This document shows, piece by piece, positions 3,369-10,912 of a stretch of DNA of 10,912 nt (position 1 is its first letter; every line of letters begins with the position of its first letter). The notes beneath the pieces are model-generated. The model was not told the DNA's origin, ran no database searches, and saw nothing but the letters and a program-made list of their open reading frames with translations. The position numbers were made by a program, and so were the translations under genes. Origin of the DNA: Azolla caroliniana (lineage: Eukaryota; Plantae; Polypodiophyta); NCBI GenBank assembly GCA_043228905.1, contig JBHGNT010001215.1:1-10912 (forward strand), in the 5' to 3' direction.

Positions 3369-4026
3369 TGTTGGGAATATGTCCCTCTAGTGGGAGGATG
3401 ATCCGATTGTTCGGAAAGCCGACATGCGAAGAGTCGGAAAACAGTGAGTCGATTGTTTGAGAATTCGACTATTATTATTATGATGATAATAATAATGATG
3501 ATGCTAGGAAACAGGTCTCTCCGGATGAGGAGAGAGAGGAGCCGAGTTGATGAGGCCGAGGCCGAAACCGGAATTGTGTATAATAGCCAACTCGGGAGAC
3601 TATATTTGTAAATAGTCTAAGTGTGCGCCCCATGAGGGCTACGTATGTAAATAGACGGAAGTTGCGTAAGTATATATACAACTAGGACAAACTTTTAGAG
3701 TGTGATGAACAGAGTTAGAACTGCAGAAGTAGTACGACTGAGAGAGAGAGAGAGAGAAGCGAGAGCCGCGCCATAGCTATGTGTGTAACAGCAGACACGA
3801 AGAGCCCTGTGCGGCTGATACACTCAACAGAGTGTTGTAATCATCTCTGTGTTGTATATCCACTATTTGTATAGTGAAGTTCTATTCCCGTGGTTTTCCC
3901 CGTTTCAAGGTTTCCACGTAAATCTCTGTGTACATCTGTTTATCTTGCCTTGTCTGGTAGATTTGTGATTCGTATTTCAGCGCATTATTTGTCTATTGTG
4001 ATTGATTTTGCGACGATTTCTCAACA
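3369..4026 (+). mobile_element. Solo LTR, copia-like (658 bp), 5-bp TSD CATAA
   Basis: TGTTGGGAA...TTCTCAACA termini; CATAA at 3364-3368 and 4027-4031; TATATATA at 3671-3678; motifs GTGGTTTTCC and GGTTTCCACGTAAATC; homologous to 1257-1855. Confidence 0.93.
3740..3757. repeat. (GA)9 microsatellite inside the solo LTR
   Basis: Directly visible. Confidence 0.9.
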
Positions 4027-4723
4027 CATAACTATTAGTCATCGATCATCTAATTAGTTGTGGCTAATATTATAATTCTAACACCTAGAAATATTAATGG
4101 TGGATGATTCTTGGATGTAGAGAGAATAGAGCATGGTTGAGAGAATGACAACAGCCCAAGCAACAATGGGAGGGTCTCGTGAATCGCTTCTCAATTTTCA
4201 ACCTGTTGTGGGGATGATGAGCTTCAATTATCAGAGCAAGAAGAAGTACAGATGAGACAAGAGATCCACTGATTGCAACAAATTTTTTTAATCATACAAA
4301 TTTTAAGTCTCTGGCCAAATTGCCAAGAGTTGAGGCACTTGCAATAGGCTCAATTGTAGGCAAAAATTGGCCGTATTGAAATGTGCAGTTTCTTGGAAGA
4401 GGCTATTACCATGTCGAGTTTCAAGATGAGGCATCTGTCCAGGTATTACTTGCTATGAAATTTCTTGAAATACGAGGAGCATGGGTTAAATTTCAGGAAT
4501 GGAAGCATGGTTTTGATCCCATGAGAGAGACCTGACATGATTTTTTAGTTTTAACTATGAGTTTTCTGGGATTGCCTAAGGAATGTCATCATCTATTGCA
4601 TCAATTGGGGGGGCGTTGTCGTGGAGGACTCGGTAATTAGGAGAAAGATTCGTCAGATGCGTGTGAACAGGGGTGTTCCACCCACACGAAACGGGTCTTA
4701 TGTATAAACTAATTATAAATATT

Positions 4724-4751
4724 GAAGTATTTAGAAGTATTTAGAAGTATT
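4724..4751. repeat. 10-bp tandem repeat (GAAGTATTTA) x2.8
   Basis: Directly visible in the putative U3 of the solo LTR. Confidence 0.9.
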
Positions 4752-5162
4752 AGGTAGAGTGTTTAATAGGTACTTTTAAGATCCCATAAAAAGACAGGAA
4801 TAAAGTGTGTGATGGGAAGAAATCGAGGGGAGGATCACTGACATGAAAATGGTTGTCATAAAGCTAATGTAACCAACGCTCCTTGGGCTACATATAAAAG
4901 CAAGGAAAGAAGACCGTTTTAGGCATTAGTCATTTTGGAGGGAGAAGTGTTATCAGTTTGAGGAGTCTGTCGGTTTTTTGTTCTCTGTGGATTCGGATAG
5001 CTAGGGTGAGGTCCTTCGCATAGGAAGCCTGTATGCTCCCGACCAGAGGCTCACTAACGTGTGTGGGTCTGTCTGAAGAGCTCAAAGCTCTGTTTCCTAG
5101 CTGGCAGGCCATTCTTTGTATTATTTTTCTCGATAGTTAATTATTTCTTTGTTGTATTTGTT

Positions 5163-5165
<3 letters not shown>

Positions 5166-5197
<32 letters not shown>
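5166..5197. repeat. (TG)16 microsatellite inside the solo LTR
   Basis: Directly visible. Confidence 0.97.
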
Positions 5198-5199
<2 letters not shown>

Positions 5200-6454
5200 G
5201 TTTCGACATTGGTATCTCCGTTTGTGTCTGAGGAGGCATTGTTCTCCTCTCCCTCTTTGTTCTACGCATTTCTACCTGAGTCTGTGAGCTCGTGCGCTCC
5301 TTTCTGGAGTCCGATGATAGGGCCGGATTGGTTACAAGATCTCTAAGCCTGTGTGCTCAGTGAAGAACCCTGGCAAACGAGCCAGTTAGGTCATTGCAAG
5401 TGTAGTAGCCTCTCTACCTCCGAGTCCCTAGTCCAAGACCCCCGTGGTCCCACCCGATCCGACACGTACACACGGAAATCCGCGGCACCGTTTAATTGGA
5501 GTTGTATTAGATGCCTATATACATAACAAAGACAGACAAATATTTGGAATACTAGTAATTAAATTATTACGTACTAGAGGAAAACCATTGCCGGCATATG
5601 TGAAATTACATTGTTTGGAATATGGGGGATGTGGAAAGAGACAAAAAAATTTATATGTTGGTTTACCAAATCAATGTTTTTTATGTAAAAGAATGAGATA
5701 TTTAGCTAAGGAATGTTCCTTGTCAAGGAAAGGTCCGATACATGCTGTAAATGATGAGCCACAAATAAGTGTTGGCGGCTCTTGGGTTCATGTTGCCAAA
5801 AGACACATGATAAAAAAGACAAGTCATGATAAATCCAAATGGTAACCTAAGGATAATATATACAATTTGTTAACAAAATTATGTAGAAGATGGACAAACT
5901 CAATTGATGGAAATTTTGGGAAATACAGAAGTACCTGACTATAGGTGTCTTGGCAAGGAGATTGTGGAAGGAATACAATAAAGACCAAATGATCCCAAAC
6001 TTGACGTTCAAGTATATAATAACAAACATCAGGAAGGATGTAGTTGTGAAATGGTTTTATATGCTAAGAATGCTATCATTCCGATAAATGTATCGGAAAC
6101 AATGAATGGACAAGAGATTGTAGGGGAACTACAAACTAAAAATCGAGTAGTTGACATAGGACCCTTGCGTTTGTTTGAAGGGAGGTGGACAAAATCCATG
6201 TCCAAGCACTTGCCAAGGGATCATAATCCTTTCATGAATGATGCTAATGATTGGAGAACTTCCACGAAATCATTAATTGAAAAATTTCAAGAAAGTGATT
6301 GTAAGATTTCCTCTCAAAGAGTACATAAACAAACTAATGCATTTAGTAAAGATTACATAGCTTTTAGAAGAATGATTAAGTCCTAAGATATGTCTCAAGA
6401 AGACAGGAATAGATGTTTGAAAGAAAAAAGATTACTATCTAAATTTGTGTAAAT

Positions 6455-9400
6455 ATGAAGATTATTTCTTGGAATGTTCAGGGTCTTGGGAGATCCTTAT
6501 GTAAACAATATAAACAGAGACTTCAACAAGAGTTGCATAAATGTATAATTGGGCAAGTGGAGATAATGATGTTACAAGAACATAATCTAAATGAAAGGCA
6601 TACTAAATTCTATGGTTCATTATTGCATGGAAATTGGGAAATGTTGTGGGTTCCAACATATGGAACAACACAACTTCAAGGTGGATTATGTATGGCTATT
6701 CATGATATATGGCAAGTAAAGATGTTGGATGTAGGAAATTTGTTGCTAGGAAGAGCGCAATATGTAATCATGAAATTTCATAATAAAAAAGGTTGGCTTT
6801 CTGAATTTGTATGCTCCTAATTATTCTAGACAACTATTAAAGATGTGGATTGAGTTGGATAGTTCATTGCTAGTTGTAGATCATTGGTGTGTAGCAGGAG
6901 ACTTTAATATGATTGAGGATCCTAAGGATAGGAGTGGTGAAGGTGGAGTAACACTGCATGGTTTAGAATTATCAACATGAGAAAAATTTACTATAAGTAG
7001 AAGGTTGTTGGATGTTTGACATTTACTATCCTTTGGAAAATTGCATAATTCTTTAAAGTTTTCTAGGTTTGATAGAAGATTAAATGGGGCAAATTTGTCA
7101 AGAATTCATAGGATTTATGTTGAGGATTTATTTGTGGAGATAGGAGGGAGTGTTGACATTTATCTAGGTACGACTTTCTCCGATCATGCCCCAGTTGTGT
7201 TACAAGTTAATGATGGGAAAAAACGTAAGCAACAAGGGAGAATAAGTATTCCACCTGAATTGTTTACAAAACCTATAATTACTGAACAAGTTATGTATAT
7301 ATGGAGACAACCTTTATTGCAAACTGGAAATGTGGAAGATAATGTGGCCTTGGCAATGTTACATATTAGTAGTTTCTTAATCTCTTGGGCTCAAGGGAAA
7401 AGGGAAAGATATACACAGAAAATTATCAGTATGCACCGTGCCTTGACATCGATGCAACATTTTCAAGAAAGGGATCCATTGTGTGAATGGACGGGAAATG
7501 CTTTACATAATGTGAAATGGGAATTAAGAAATATTGAGGACAACATTTTACAACTTCAATATCAAGCTTCTGCGTCAAAATGGACACAAGTAGGTGACAG
7601 AGTAAACAAAATGTTTTTTTCCCAAATTGCACCGAAATGGTCGGCAATAGGGATTAAATAACTGAGGAGAGAAGATGGCTCCTTAACAGAAGATGAGTCA
7701 TAAATTGTAAAAATTGCTACTAGTTACTATACTAAATTGTTGTCCATTGGAGTTGTTACCGAATCTGTTCACACAAGTAGGAAATGTGTGTGGGACAAAA
7801 TTAAGCCTAAAATCACAAACGAAATGAAGATTGCATTACTGAAGCACTTTGGCATTATGGAAATACATAATGCAATTAGAGCTTTAAGTCTTATGTCTTG
7901 TCCACGAGAGGATGGAATTACTGCACATTTTTTCCTCAAATATTGGGAATATATTGGGGAAGACTTAATGAAAGCTCAAAGAATTTTTTACACTGGGTAT
8001 ATGCCTCATATATAGTATGGCAGTTGGCTTGATTTATTTAATACCTAAGGGTGAAGGTATATAAGATGATATTAGAAAATGAAGACCAATAACTTTGCTA
8101 AATACAATATATAAAATCTTCGGAAAAACATTGTCATTGAGAGTGCAACCCTTCTTACATTATTTGATTCATATCACCCAAACAGGTTTTATTTAGGAAA
8201 GAAGTATACTGGATAATTTGTTCTTTTTTTGGGAAGCCATTGCCTTGGCTCGTAAAAAACAGAGGATTTAGTGATTTTGTTACTTGACTTTGAAAAAGCA
8301 TATGGTCGAGCTGATTGGGAGTTCCTTCATGGTACTATTGTAAGACTGGGTTTTCCGGAGAAATGGGTGATAGGAATGTCTTCTTTGTACAATTTAGCGT
8401 ACAATTTTGTTTTGGCAGGAGGGGTTAAAGGCGATGGGTTAAAAATTTCCCGAAGTGTATGACAAGGTTGCCCACTTGCACCATATTTATCTTTGTTTTT
8501 TGTTGAAGCGATGAGTTTGTTTTTGACTATTGAAGAGGTTGCATTGAAAGGAATAACAATGCCCCTTGATGGGACAAATGTTGTCAATGTAGAATTTGTT
8601 GATGATACAAGTTTGTATCTAGATGGTCAGATTAATAATTTGAAGAAAATGTACACAATAGTGCGAACATTTTGTATGGTTTCAGGTGCATCAATTAGTT
8701 GGAATAAATCAGTGGGGTTTTGGGCGTTGTCGAATTCCACAACTCCACAATGGAGTCCTCATCCAGATTTCCAATGGATTCCCAAGGGCACTTCAATTAG
8801 ATATTTGGGATGCCAAGTAGGTTTGAATATTTCTTCAAAAATTCAGGTTGCTTCTTTGCTATGGAAAATTAGGAAAAAACTTTTGTTTTGGAGTAAAGCT
8901 AAACTATCATTTGCGGGTAGAGTGATAGTTGTTAATCAAGTTCTGTTGTCTAGCCTATGATATATTATGTCATGTTGGAGTTTTTCCAATCATACATGGG
9001 ACAAACACAAAGATTGATCCAGAATTAGTTGTGGTTTGGTAATGATGGAAGCCATGCCAGGGCAAAGGTCTCTTGGTTCACGATTGTTAAGCCATTGGAT
9101 CGGGGTGGATTAGGGATTGTAGATACATTACAATAGTCCAAAGCTTTGACTGCAAAATTGGTGATTCGAGGATTGTTGCTAGGATTAGAACCTTGGAAAC
9201 AATTGTTGTTATATGAATCGCAAAAGTTTTGTCCCAAAACTGATGGGGATTGGAGGCCTAGTTTTAGATGGGCTTTTATGGAACATAACAAGTTGACTAT
9301 TGCCAGAAATTGGGAATACATATTTGTGCGATGTGTTCTTAATGCATGGAAAGGTGTTTCTCTTGATTTAGTTAAGAGATTGCCAAGAATAGAATCTGAA

Positions 9401-9785
9401 TTCTATAGACAACCCCTGATTTGGAATTCATGGTTAACTGACTAGAGAGGATTGATGTTGGGGAGGCTAGGGCAAAATTAGATGGTGGCCCAACACAATC
9501 TATAGGTGCATGGACAACATTTCTGTCTAAACCTATAGATAAACAAATGTTACTAATTAGTAATATAAGGGGTGGGAAGATAATGTATTATGTAATACAA
9601 AAACCCTTTCTAATATTTAGATGCAAAGTGGATCTGCTACACAGAAGTGAATGGTTTTATTTACTCCATTGGATGTTTTAATTGGAGTTAATGCCTATAT
9701 TGGGGAACAAGAGTGTATGATTTTTTATGTAGAAGATGATGGTAGGTTAATCTTTACACATAAGGAAAATAATTTGTTTAGGTTT
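6455..9785 (+). pseudogene. LINE ORF2 remnant: APE-type endonuclease plus reverse transcriptase
   Basis: EN motifs: MKIISWNVQGL, LQEH, NLYAPN (after a frameshift at the A-run 6785-6790), AGDFN, SRIHRIY, FSDHAPV. RT motifs: CPREDG, LIPK, *RPITLLNTIYKI, QTGFI, LLLDFEKAY, V*QGCPLAPYL, FVDD (8595-8606), ISWNKS, YLG, LSFAGR, KVSW...RGGLGI. Confidence 0.96.
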
Positions 9786-9800
9786 TGTCATGATATGGCA

Positions 9801-9855
9801 AGACTCGAACCCATGACCTTAGGTTATATGGGTCGAGCTCTTGACCATTAGACCA
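9801..9855 (-). promoter_or_regulatory. tRNA-like Pol III internal promoter (A box plus B box), antisense in U3
   Basis: Minus strand: TGGTCTAATGG (9855-9845), then 33 nt, then GGTTCGAGTCT (9811-9801). This is tRNA-like spacing, but the cloverleaf stems are degenerate. Confidence 0.65.
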
Positions 9856-9916
9856 TCTATTGTAATACGTAAGATATTATTTTCATTTACATTTTATTAT
9901 AGGAAATTAGTGTATA

Positions 9917-9954
9917 TTCCAGATTTCTCTGGAACATTCTAGAAGCTTCAGGAT
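9917..9954. promoter_or_regulatory. Heat-shock element array
   Basis: Perfect GAAcaTTCtaGAAgcTTC at 9932-9949, extended in the same 5-bp register by TTC (9917), GAT (9922), CTC (9927) and GAT (9952). The perfect core ends 20 nt upstream of the TATA box. Confidence 0.75.
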
Positions 9955-9969
9955 TACTCCTGAAAACAC

Positions 9970-9976
9970 TATAAAA
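9970..9976 (+). promoter_or_regulatory. LTR TATA box
   Basis: TATAAAA, 33 nt upstream of the start site predicted from PBS complementarity (10003). Confidence 0.75.
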
Positions 9977-10221
9977 GAGGGCACTAGGCATTATGTTGAA
10001 CCAAATTGGTTCAACGCCAGTCTTAAGCCTTTTAGCCACCGTTGTATATTCTCTTCATATAATAAATATCTTTCTTATCATCACTCTCTCTCCCTCTCTC
10101 CCTCTCTTTCTCTCTGTCTCGCTCACTTCTTCCTTCTCTCGAAGAAGTTCCACACCTCTCATAGTACTAATCCTTCGTTTAGTACTAATTCCTTCTCTGT
10201 CTCAGTACTGTTCATGACAAT

Positions 10222-10233
10222 TTGAACCAATTT
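10222..10233 (+). other. Self-priming primer-binding site
   Basis: TTGAACCAATTT begins 2 nt after the LTR end and is the exact reverse complement of AAATTGGTTCAA (10003-10014). It lacks the TGG start of a tRNA-type PBS. Confidence 0.85.
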
Positions 10234-10292: not shown

Positions 10293-10912
10293 ATGGCCAC
10301 TGTTAGCGCTGAAGAATATCAATCTGTTTTCTCGGAATTCCAATGCTTGAAGGAGAAGTTCCATGCTTTGGAACAAGAAAACCAACGGTTGCTGGGGGAT
10401 CTTTAGCAAATCTCCTTAGAAAAGCAGCAAACGCAACAACAACATGGGGAACTTGCGTTACGCGTGCAACAACTCGAAGCCACCATCGTAGCGATGCAAC
10501 AACATGGGCCCGGAACACAAGGGATTCATAAAGAACCTAAGATTGGCCTTCCCACGAAGTTCGATGGAACGCGATCGCAGTTTAGAGGGTTCCTTAACCA
10601 GGTACGATTAGTTATTCAAATGCATCCTTCCCGATATCCCACCGATGCATCACGAGTGGGTTTAGTAGGCACTTTGTTAAGTGGCTCAGCGTTGTCATGG
10701 TTCGCTCCACTATTAGAAAAGGAATCTCCGTTACTCAACAATTTTGAAGAGTTTCTAGGTGAGTTTAAAGCATGTTTCGGAGATACTGACAGCATCAGGA
10801 CCGCAATCAACAAAATCCGGCGATTACGCCAAGGTGACCGTCCAGCCTCCGCATACGCTGCAGATTTTCGCCTACTCGCCGCCGATATCCCTTGGGATGA
10901 TCAAGCGTTGAT
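10293..10912 (+). pseudogene. gag: gag of the gypsy element, with one premature stop, truncated by the window edge
   Basis: MATVSAEEYQ...LLGDL*QISLEK...KEPKIGLPTKFDGTRSQFRGFLNQVRLVIQMHPSRYPTDASRVGLVGTLLSGSALSWF...FGD...IRRLRQGDRPASAYAADFRLLAADIPWDDQAL. It has an N-terminal coiled coil and the PxxFDG, GxAxxW and LRQG..YxxxF capsid motifs. The stop is TAG at 10404-10406. Confidence 0.93.

What the first reader, a model, noticed from the sequence alone, without database searches (positions are those of the whole stretch)
9786..9862. Antisense tRNA-like Pol III module built into the tip of a gypsy LTR
Seen: the first ~75 bp of U3 read on the minus strand TGGTCTAATGG-tcaagagctcgacccatataacctaaggtcatg-GGTTCGAGTCT. 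This is an A box and B box 33 nt apart, with a 3/4 D-stem (GTCT/AGAG) and a middle resembling tRNA-Met anticodon/variable regions. It lies inside the LTR terminus and points outward. Known: Cassandra TRIMs carry 5S-derived Pol III promoters in their LTRs, and TFIIIC-bound B boxes can act as chromatin barriers. Inference: this family may have captured a tRNA/SINE head that shields the LTR promoter from flanking heterochromatin or makes Pol III RNA (into the flank from the 5' LTR, antisense to the element from the 3' LTR). I do not know of this being described for Tcn1-type elements but cannot check.
Basis: partly seen in the sequence, partly recalled or inferred. Interest (0 to 1): 0.8.

Follow-up and report, generated by a model that had tools for sequence, protein, structure and literature searches.

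The report
Backward tRNA promoter in retrotransposon ends
A whole lineage of jumping genes, likely from a moss-like plant, keeps the control signals of a tRNA gene back to front at the outer tip of its terminal repeats, and these signals likely recruit the host's tRNA-gene machinery, which would help keep the element's own promoter open inside silenced chromatin.

Summary
Real, and wider than reported. Window 9786-10219 is the 5' LTR of a self-priming, chromodomain-bearing (Tcn1-type) gypsy element. Its minus strand carries an A box (9855-9845) and a B box (9811-9801) 33 nt apart, facing outward. In 80 related loci the module sits at the U3 tip of 11 of 12 LTR clusters whose tips are only 49-68% alike, and in 33 of 33 LTRs anchored without the boxes, always antisense, always 32-33 nt apart. 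A-box core, variable-loop AGGT and B box are conserved (0.83-0.91), the middle is not (0.50), and there is no cloverleaf. This fits selection for a DNA-level TFIIIC site. No fixed terminator. Binding, transcription and barrier activity are untested; the barrier/promoter-aid role is inferred (0.45). It is not Helenus or Cassandra: the element is autonomous, the module antisense, priming tRNA-free. One clade has a second antisense module inside pol. No paper describing this turned up in 7 searches. The scan noted tRNA-type boxes in LTRs of probably fungal elements before (e1-10420520, e1-9852194; unchecked).

The parts
9786..10219 (+). 5' LTR (434 bp, TGTCATGA...TCATGACA) of a Tcn1-type gypsy element
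   Evidence: termini; depth step and loose ends at 9786; 98% match to LTR in L003
9791..9862 (-). tRNA-length module (tRNA positions 1-72), antisense to the element, facing out of the LTR
9845..9855 (-). A box TGGTCTAATGG; its 3' half (A14-G19) is the conserved part
   Evidence: (0.89 across 11 clusters)
9815..9819 (-). Variable-loop motif AGGTC (tRNA positions 44-48), as conserved as the B box
   Evidence: 0.91; AGGT in 28 of 32 rows; PMC11724288 passage on TFIIIC contacts at +44 to +47
9801..9811 (-). B box GGTTCGAGTCT
   Evidence: 0.83; G53, T54, T55, A58 invariant in 17 rows
9863..9902 (-). A/T-rich stretch upstream of the module, where TFIIIB would sit (inferred)
   Evidence: 85% A+T here; 72-88% in 11 clusters, module 51-67%; plant tRNA genes have such a stretch (PMC11700998 passages)
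9796..9848 (.). Imperfect palindrome covering the module; strong only in this cluster and L059
   Evidence: z -4.4 to -4.7; z below -3 in 2 of 11 clusters
9931..9950 (.). Heat-shock-element-like array (GAAnnTTCnnGAAnnTTC; consensus recalled)
   Evidence: 6 of 12 cluster representatives; 0.96 conserved in 11 close copies
9970..9977 (+). TATA box of the predicted Pol II promoter
   Evidence: sequence; TATA precedes the R-start motif in all 38 LTRs by construction of that search
10003..10014 (+). Predicted RNA 5' end and self-primer, complementary to the PBS
   Evidence: 12 of 12 nt; primer and PBS change together between families
10222..10233 (+). Self-priming primer-binding site, 2 nt behind the LTR
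   Evidence: (found in 21 of 33 LTRs; several of the rest are 3' LTRs or end with the contig)
10293..10912 (+). gag (runs off the window; in-frame stop at 10404-10406 in this copy)
   Evidence: Retrotrans_gag, Ty3_capsid, DUF4939; 99% to P0002
6443..9785 (+). Decayed LINE into whose 3' part the gypsy element inserted
   Evidence: endonuclease E 0.008, below cut-off; RVT_1 E 1e-7; low, separate depth up to 9785

Best explanation
The U3 tip of these autonomous Tcn1-type retrotransposons holds a conserved, outward-facing set of tRNA-gene promoter boxes that likely binds TFIIIC (and would place TFIIIB and Pol III), which likely works as a portable chromatin barrier and opener for the element's own Pol II promoter just inside it. 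Shown: the boxes, their fixed 32-33 nt spacing, antisense orientation, tip position and conservation across diverged families, loss of the cloverleaf, self-priming, and a chromodomain on the integrase. Inferred: descent from a tRNA gene or tRNA-derived SINE head; TFIIIC binding; TFIIIB landing on the A/T-rich stretch about 70-110 bp upstream of the heat-shock-like array and TATA box; protection from heterochromatin, into which a chromodomain integrase is expected to insert (recalled). The outward direction would keep Pol III from reading through the Pol II promoter; any RNA made would be a by-product.
For: 11 of 12 tip clusters carry the module, 10 with 0 of 100 shuffles reaching the score and one with 2 of 100. 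33 of 33 LTRs anchored by TATA plus R-start motif score >=16 of 19 on the minus strand, 0 of 33 on the plus strand, spacing 32 or 33 in all although 30-35 was allowed; 26 of 28 when anchored by the PBS. In 304,174 bases of loci only 37 sites score >=17: 31 antisense in U3, 3 antisense in pol, 2 real tRNA genes, 1 inverted LTR; 6 of 7 E. coli tRNA genes score 18, as the window does. Conserved columns are A14-G19 (0.89), 44-48 (0.91) and B box (0.83) against anticodon arm 0.50, upstream 0.53, 63-72 0.53, over elements whose integrase C-termini are down to 56% identical. Positions 44-47 lie outside the B box but are contacted by yeast TFIIIC and change its binding and transcription, and 32 bp is the commonest A-B distance (PMC11724288 passages). 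B-to-tip distance varies 10-39 nt while A-B does not. No consensus RNA fold, no fixed terminator. TFIIIC-bound tRNA genes and ETC sites are heterochromatin barriers (PMC12409998 passages); the fission-yeast one needs TFIIIC and Pol III and is orientation-independent (PMC2040200 abstract). pol of 5 of 5 relatives scanned ends in a chromodomain.
Against: No occupancy, chromatin or reporter data. TFIIIC tolerates 32-93 bp spacing, so the strict 32-33 nt is more than binding alone demands. D-stem pairs covary more than family swaps give (23 Watson-Crick cells against 15.3, P 0.002; pair 11:24 kept in 15 of 17 rows), which hints at an RNA-level role; this control ignores relatedness. Among 11 close copies the boxes are only slightly more conserved than their neighbours (B 0.91, A 3' half 0.96, A 5' half 0.77, anticodon arm 0.89, upstream 0.89). 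The Selaginella SM-Tcn1 LTR shows no such module by eye (PMC2864245 supplement S3), so Tcn1 elements can do without it. A barrier would not need one fixed orientation. 79 of the 80 loci come from one series of assemblies, so host breadth is unknown. TE DNA in plants is usually methylated, which could block TFIIIC (recalled).
Confidence: 0.45

Rival explanations
1. The module is a working Pol III promoter whose product matters: from the 3' LTR it makes antisense RNA across the polypurine tract into the integrase-chromodomain end, limiting or timing the element's own activity; from the 5' LTR it reads into the flank.
For: Complete promoter anatomy with A box and A/T-rich upstream stretch, not a lone B box. 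Orientation is antisense in every case. A second antisense module lies inside pol of one clade. In 8 of 17 3' LTRs the first T4 is 290 nt or more away or absent within 600 nt, allowing long antisense RNA.
Against: Predicted lengths run from 66 nt to over 600 nt, with T4 inside the LTR in 6 of 17. The lower A4 count at the pol 3' end is matched by a lower T4 count, so it is not strand-specific. The transcribed middle is unconstrained.
Confidence: 0.2
2. The motif acts in the genomic RNA, where the U3 tip follows the polypurine tract: it anneals to host tRNA loops or forms a small structure used in packaging, dimerisation or strand transfer, as the 3' part of the Ty3 bipartite primer site does (recalled).
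For: Strict tRNA-length spacing. The D-stem register is the best of 11 five-pair helices that passed the 50% filter in an unbiased scan (P 0.001-0.002); cloverleaf covariation score reached by 4 of 500 shuffles. Strong hairpins in 2 of 11 clusters.
Against: The elements self-prime and need no tRNA. RNAalifold finds no consensus pair; acceptor and anticodon stems are 43% and 38% paired. The module does not pair better with its own family's RNA 5' end than with others (P 0.95), and the primer changes between clades while the B box does not.
Confidence: 0.15
3. The TFIIIC site serves integration rather than expression: it tethers the cDNA end to Pol III sites, or makes the LTRs landing pads or decoys for tRNA-gene-targeting elements.
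For: The B box lies 10-39 nt from the att end. One contig joins position 9882 plus three letters to a new LTR start, about 23 nt upstream of tRNA position 1.
Against: 0 of 12 host flanks (178-250 nt) beside 5' LTR tips hold a module scoring >=16. The 4 tRNA genes called in the 80 loci do not abut LTR ends. The single joint is one of two self-nesting joints listed from a cut table.
Confidence: 0.1
4. The module is a neutral relic of an old tRNA or SINE insertion, or a chance match.
For: Weak contrast among close copies; absent from SM-Tcn1 by eye; no Rfam score.
Against: Boxes stay while the sequence between and around them falls to about 0.5 majority share, and spacing is fixed while tip distance drifts. 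Background hits are practically nil.
Confidence: 0.04

Closest known systems
Helenus (TRIMp3; Kojima 2024, PMC10886601; read parts 1-4 of 6, figure legends, one supplement passage)
   Same: tRNA-derived sequence in an LTR, conserved around boxes A and B, mostly without a working cloverleaf; one family is from a non-seed plant (Selaginella).
   Different: Helenus is non-autonomous (311-1263 bp), primes with tRNA, and in Helenus-1_SMo the tRNA part is in sense orientation in mid-LTR, where it is thought to transcribe the element. Here the element is autonomous (gag plus about 1200-aa pol), self-priming, has a TATA-type promoter, and the module is antisense at the U3 tip. The paper notes that 'not a few' Repbase LTRs hold part of a tRNA but describes only the TRIMs.
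Cassandra and Ajax TRIMs (as described in PMC10886601)
   Same: Pol III internal promoter from a small-RNA gene carried in LTRs over long evolutionary time.
   Different: 5S-derived (A, IE, C boxes), non-autonomous; the Cassandra promoter makes the element's own RNA.
Tcn1 clade chromoviruses (SM-Tcn1, PpatensLTR; PMC2864245 passages and supplement S3; PMC6317226 passages and one table row)
   Same: Overlapping gag and pol frames, type I chromodomain, self-priming; gag, pol start, R-start motif and PBS resemble SM-Tcn1 closely by eye.
   Different: No Pol III module is mentioned in the passages read ('polymerase III' occurs 0 times in PMC2864245) and none is visible by eye in the SM-Tcn1 LTR.
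tRNA-gene and ETC heterochromatin barriers (PMC2040200 abstract; PMC12409998 passages)
   Same: A and B boxes at the edge of a domain that has to stay active; proposed working principle.
   Different: Known barriers are fixed host loci; this one would travel with a retrotransposon. Activity is untested here.
Plant tRNA-derived SINE heads (SINE-Finder motifs as quoted in PMC7315354, one passage)
   Same: RVTGG, 25-50 nt spacer, GTTCRA are all met.
   Different: No SINE body, poly(A/T) tail or target-site duplication inside the LTR; the LTR ends 10-39 nt behind the B box.

Membership tests
Tcn1 clade chromovirus | gag, then protease-RT-RNase H-integrase with a C-terminal chromodomain | tested here: met
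   (pol taken from relatives L004, L005 with 81-90% gag identity; the window ends within gag)
Tcn1 clade chromovirus | self-priming instead of a tRNA PBS | tested here: met
   12-nt complement; primer and PBS change together; feature from PMC6317226
Tcn1 clade chromovirus | phylogenetic placement with reference Tcn1 RT-RH-INT | tested here: inconclusive
   No tree with references. By eye close to SM-Tcn1; named RT relatives are chytrid (62%), amphibian (up to 61%), fish and basidiomycete elements, as expected for the Tf1/sushi group
Tcn1 clade chromovirus | 5-bp target-site duplication | not testable with these tools
   The 3' end lies outside the window and no genome is held
Helenus / TRIMp3 | tRNA-derived A and B boxes inside the LTR | tested here: met
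Helenus / TRIMp3 | short, non-autonomous, no coding capacity | tested here: not met
   Intact gag and pol frames of about 380 and 1200 aa next to module-bearing LTRs
Helenus / TRIMp3 | tRNA-complementary PBS | tested here: not met
   PBS is complementary to the element's own R start
Helenus / TRIMp3 | Pol III promoter oriented to transcribe the element | tested here: not met
   Antisense in 33 of 33 LTRs; sense in Helenus-1_SMo
tRNA gene | cloverleaf with acceptor, D, anticodon and T stems; covariance-model score | tested here: not met
   a real tRNA-Arg in L046 scores 65 bits in the same search
Pol III type 2 promoter | A box and B box with suitable spacing | tested here: met
   18 of 19 recalled consensus positions in the window, 33 nt apart; same score as 6 of 7 E. 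coli tRNA genes
Pol III type 2 promoter | TFIIIC, TFIIIB and Pol III occupancy; transcript | not testable with these tools
   Only poly(A) libraries of a related species were on hand
tRNA-derived SINE insertion | head followed by body, poly(A/T) tail and TSD | tested here: not met
   Head motifs match, but only 10-39 nt of non-conserved sequence lie between B box and LTR tip

The most novel reading that the evidence does not exclude
Heterochromatin-seeking Tcn1 chromoviruses carry their own Pol III barrier: a captured tRNA promoter, turned outward at the LTR edge, that lets an autonomous retrotransposon insert into silent chromatin and still be transcribed. It was gained more than once (two LTR types and a third copy in-frame inside pol), and scatters TFIIIC sites through the host's heterochromatin with every insertion and solo LTR.
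Probability: 0.3. Interest if true: 0.87.

Novelty: new variant of a known kind. Interest (0 to 1): 0.72.

Why it matters
How retrotransposons that aim at heterochromatin still get transcribed is an open question; a TFIIIC site fixed at the LTR edge of a whole chromovirus lineage gives a concrete, mutable answer that can be tested in a moss reporter. It extends Pol III promoters in LTRs from tiny non-autonomous TRIMs to autonomous elements and to a role other than making the element's RNA. Because the LTRs are high-copy, they could also be a large unrecognised pool of TFIIIC sites in the host genome that tRNA finders miss.

Tried and rejected
Functional tRNA gene: no ARAGORN or Rfam call on any module. 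tRNA-Met origin: not distinguishable from shuffles outside the variable loop (only 5 tRNAs compared in those calls, so the donor isotype stays open). Hairpin as the conserved feature: z below -3 in only 2 of 11 clusters, no consensus fold. Cyclisation with the self-primer, suggested by its B-box-like GGTTCAA: own-family duplexes no better than swapped ones. Conserved short RNA: terminator position varies; CAA near the start in only 4 of 11 clusters. CpG asymmetry in the B box (tolerated CA 12, untolerated TG 3, CG 14, TA 2, other 1 of 32 rows): suggestive, but rows are related and one is counted twice, so not used. Targeting next to tRNA genes: 0 of 12 flanks. RNA: no RNA holder listed; three poly(A) runs of a related species gave 44-46 reads each from about 12 million records, both strands, no start or end peak: uninformative for Pol III. 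Wider distribution: three outgroup elements from IMG/VR (RT 55-61% identical) have no module scoring >=16; pattern scans gave 6 viral and 81 prokaryotic matches, taken as chance from their record types and not examined one by one. No own genome is held, so all genomic copies could not be aligned. Literature searches that found no description of this module: (listings only, except papers named as read). The Neumann 2019 element table and FASTA and the Novikova .doc supplements could not be read; they may bear on distribution and on prior notice.

Full report
What is in the window. Bases 6443-9785 are a decayed LINE. At 9786 a gypsy element has inserted: its LTR runs 9786-10219 with inverted ends TGTCATGA...TCATGACA, summed contig depth rises about 100-fold across 9786 in all four DNA runs laid (depth is no copy number), and the same tip follows a polypurine tract in relatives. 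Two bases behind the LTR a 12-nt site (10222-10233) is the exact complement of 10003-10014, just downstream of a TATA box: a self-priming site. gag starts at 10293, has an in-frame stop at 10404-10406 in this copy, and runs off the window. No whole genome is held. The host is not identified; Tcn1 elements are reported from mosses and club-mosses (PMC6317226 passages), so a non-seed plant is likely.

The observation. The minus strand has TGGTCTAATGG at 9855-9845 and GGTTCGAGTCT at 9811-9801, 33 nt apart. A strict pattern occurs once in the window and in 2 of 300 Markov controls; with a looser B box 8% of controls have a hit, so the single copy is suggestive only. Rfam and ARAGORN see no tRNA. 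The likeness to tRNA-Met rests on the variable loop; positions 20-43 are at shuffle level. The stretch is a strong palindrome in this family.

Relatives. They hold elements with gag 44-99% identical to P0002 and pol frames of about 1200 aa with RT, RNase H, integrase and chromodomain (5 of 5 scanned). I located LTRs three ways without using the boxes, then scored 19 recalled A/B consensus positions. (1) By polypurine tract: 28 tips, one dropped as too short, plus the window, gave 12 clusters 49-68% alike over 140 nt; 11 carry the module on the minus strand (scores 15-18; 0 of 100 dinucleotide shuffles reach the score in 10, 2 of 100 in L017); L056 scores 13 and is rearranged at the A box. (2) By TATA plus R-start motif: 38 hits, 5 dropped for short upstream sequence; 33 of 33 score >=16 on the minus strand, 0 of 33 on the plus strand, spacing 32 or 33 in all. 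These rows include near-identical copies, and L065 passes although its A box is deleted. (3) By PBS: 26 of 28; the two misses are one copy whose U3 tip is cut off by another element. Over all 304,174 bases, 37 sites score >=17: 31 antisense in U3, 3 antisense inside pol, 2 real tRNA genes and 1 inverted LTR. The module is present in every main branch of an integrase tree of 24 rows, down to 56% identity.

What is conserved. In tRNA numbering over 11 clusters the majority share per column is 0.89 for A14-G19, 0.91 for 44-48 (AGGTY), 0.83 for the B box, against 0.50 for the anticodon arm, 0.53 upstream and 0.53 for 63-72. A-B spacing is fixed while the B-to-tip distance varies from 10 to 39 nt. 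The AGGT motif is the telling detail: it lies outside the classical boxes, yet yeast TFIIIC contacts this stretch and changes at +44 to +47 alter binding and transcription; 32 bp is the commonest A-B distance (PMC11724288 passages). The 40 nt upstream are 72-88% A+T, as at plant tRNA genes (PMC11700998, PMC3082873 passages), but CAA near the start appears in only 4 of 11. The cloverleaf is gone (RNAalifold: no pair; acceptor 43%, anticodon 38% paired). Against a pure DNA reading: the D-stem covaries more than family swaps give (P 0.002; best helix of an unbiased scan; pair 11:24 kept in 15 of 17 rows), with a control that ignores relatedness. Among 11 close copies the contrast between boxes and neighbours is weak. 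A T4 terminator lies inside the LTR in 6 of 17 3' LTRs and 290 nt or more away in 8, so no fixed RNA is selected.

How it likely works. The LTR reads, from the tip: att end, B box, variable loop, A box (all antisense), A/T-rich stretch, heat-shock-like array (6 of 12 representatives; consensus recalled), TATA, RNA start with self-primer. It is a back-to-back Pol III/Pol II arrangement. The conserved positions are those TFIIIC reads, so TFIIIC binding is the most economical cause of the constraint (inferred). TFIIIC would place TFIIIB on the A/T-rich stretch next to the Pol II promoter. tRNA genes and TFIIIC-only sites block heterochromatin spread (PMC12409998 passages), in fission yeast through a full Pol III complex and in either orientation (PMC2040200 abstract). 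An element whose chromodomain integrase is expected to favour heterochromatin (recalled) would gain from carrying such a barrier. I put this at 0.45; antisense Pol III RNA from the 3' LTR at 0.2; a role in the genomic RNA at 0.15; an integration or landing-pad role at 0.1; neutral relic at 0.04. Poly(A) RNA-seq of a related species could not decide. Pairing with the self-primer and insertion next to tRNA genes (0 of 12 flanks) were tested and not supported.

Origin. One clade (L015, L022, L023, L026, L028, L048, L068, L069) has a second, different antisense A/B module as an in-frame insert in the protease-RT spacer; 3 copies score >=17, and all 9 rows keep the codons CGA ACC/ACT CAR that spell the B box in an otherwise variable peptide (the rows were picked by a B-box pattern, so this is no independent test). 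The Selaginella SM-Tcn1 sequence (PMC2864245 supplement S3, read whole) shares gag, pol start, R motif and a self-complementary PBS with these elements, looks by eye closer to the window's group than the L059-L066 group does, and shows no module by eye; three IMG/VR outgroups lack it too. So the module was either lost in SM-Tcn1 or gained more than once; no tree tests this. L046 shows a route by which whole antisense tRNA copies enter LTR elements: a complete tRNA-Arg with CCA directly abutting what appears to be the LTR end of another element.

Comparison with the known. Closest are the TRIMp3 elements Helenus, Ajax and Cassandra (PMC10886601, parts 1-4 of 6 read). They are short, non-autonomous, tRNA-primed, and their promoter points into the element; this case fails those three features, so it is not a member. 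That paper says autonomous partners must use Pol II and notes in passing that not a few Repbase LTRs hold part of a tRNA, so tRNA-like bits in LTRs have been seen. Seven searches found no description of a conserved antisense Pol III module in autonomous gypsy LTRs; most subscription papers are not in the library, and two large supplements could not be read. The scan's own notes hold similar observations in probably fungal elements (AI notes, unchecked, not counted as support).

Verdict. The feature is real and constrained across a lineage; its function is inferred. New variant of a known kind; interest 0.72.

Noticed in passing
L023 2953-3005 (-), L048, L068, L015, L022, L026, L028, L069 (protease-RT spacer of pol): A second antisense tRNA-like A/B module, unlike the LTR one, sits as an in-frame insert of about 10-25 codons in pol of one clade; spacing 31 nt in the three best copies.
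   Followed up: partly
L046 87-162 (+); a similar junction in L056 near 4545: A complete tRNA-Arg(TCT) with CCA (65 bits) directly abuts what looks like the LTR end of another retrotransposon on the opposite strand, as if its primer-binding site were extended to a whole tRNA copy.
   Followed up: partly
window 10003-10014 and 10222-10233; L015, L016, L021 and others: Self-priming site with compensatory changes between families; SM-Tcn1 shows the same complement by eye although its paper reported no self-priming evidence.
   Followed up: yes
window 9931-9950; L015, L036, L050, L059, L060 LTRs: Perfect heat-shock-element-like arrays in U3, tandemly expanded in some families; families without them carry other palindromic repeats there.
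   Followed up: partly
window 3369-4026: Solo LTR of another family with a CATAA target-site duplication; a related LTR lies inverted at 1257-1855 (80% over 197 nt) without matching duplication.
   Followed up: partly
L048 1090-6350 (+): Array of degenerate tRNA-Tyr-like copies next to a 5'-truncated element.
   Followed up: no
window 9882-9886: One contig in run X5 joins this place to a new LTR start, a possible same-family insertion about 23 nt upstream of tRNA position 1.
   Followed up: no
L030 and L075 near the LTR 5' part; L056: U3 tips cut off by oppositely oriented elements of other families close to or at the module.
   Followed up: no
window about 4660-5500: GC-richer insert with TATA box and (TG)n tract interrupting the LINE 5' region; perhaps another LTR.
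   Followed up: no
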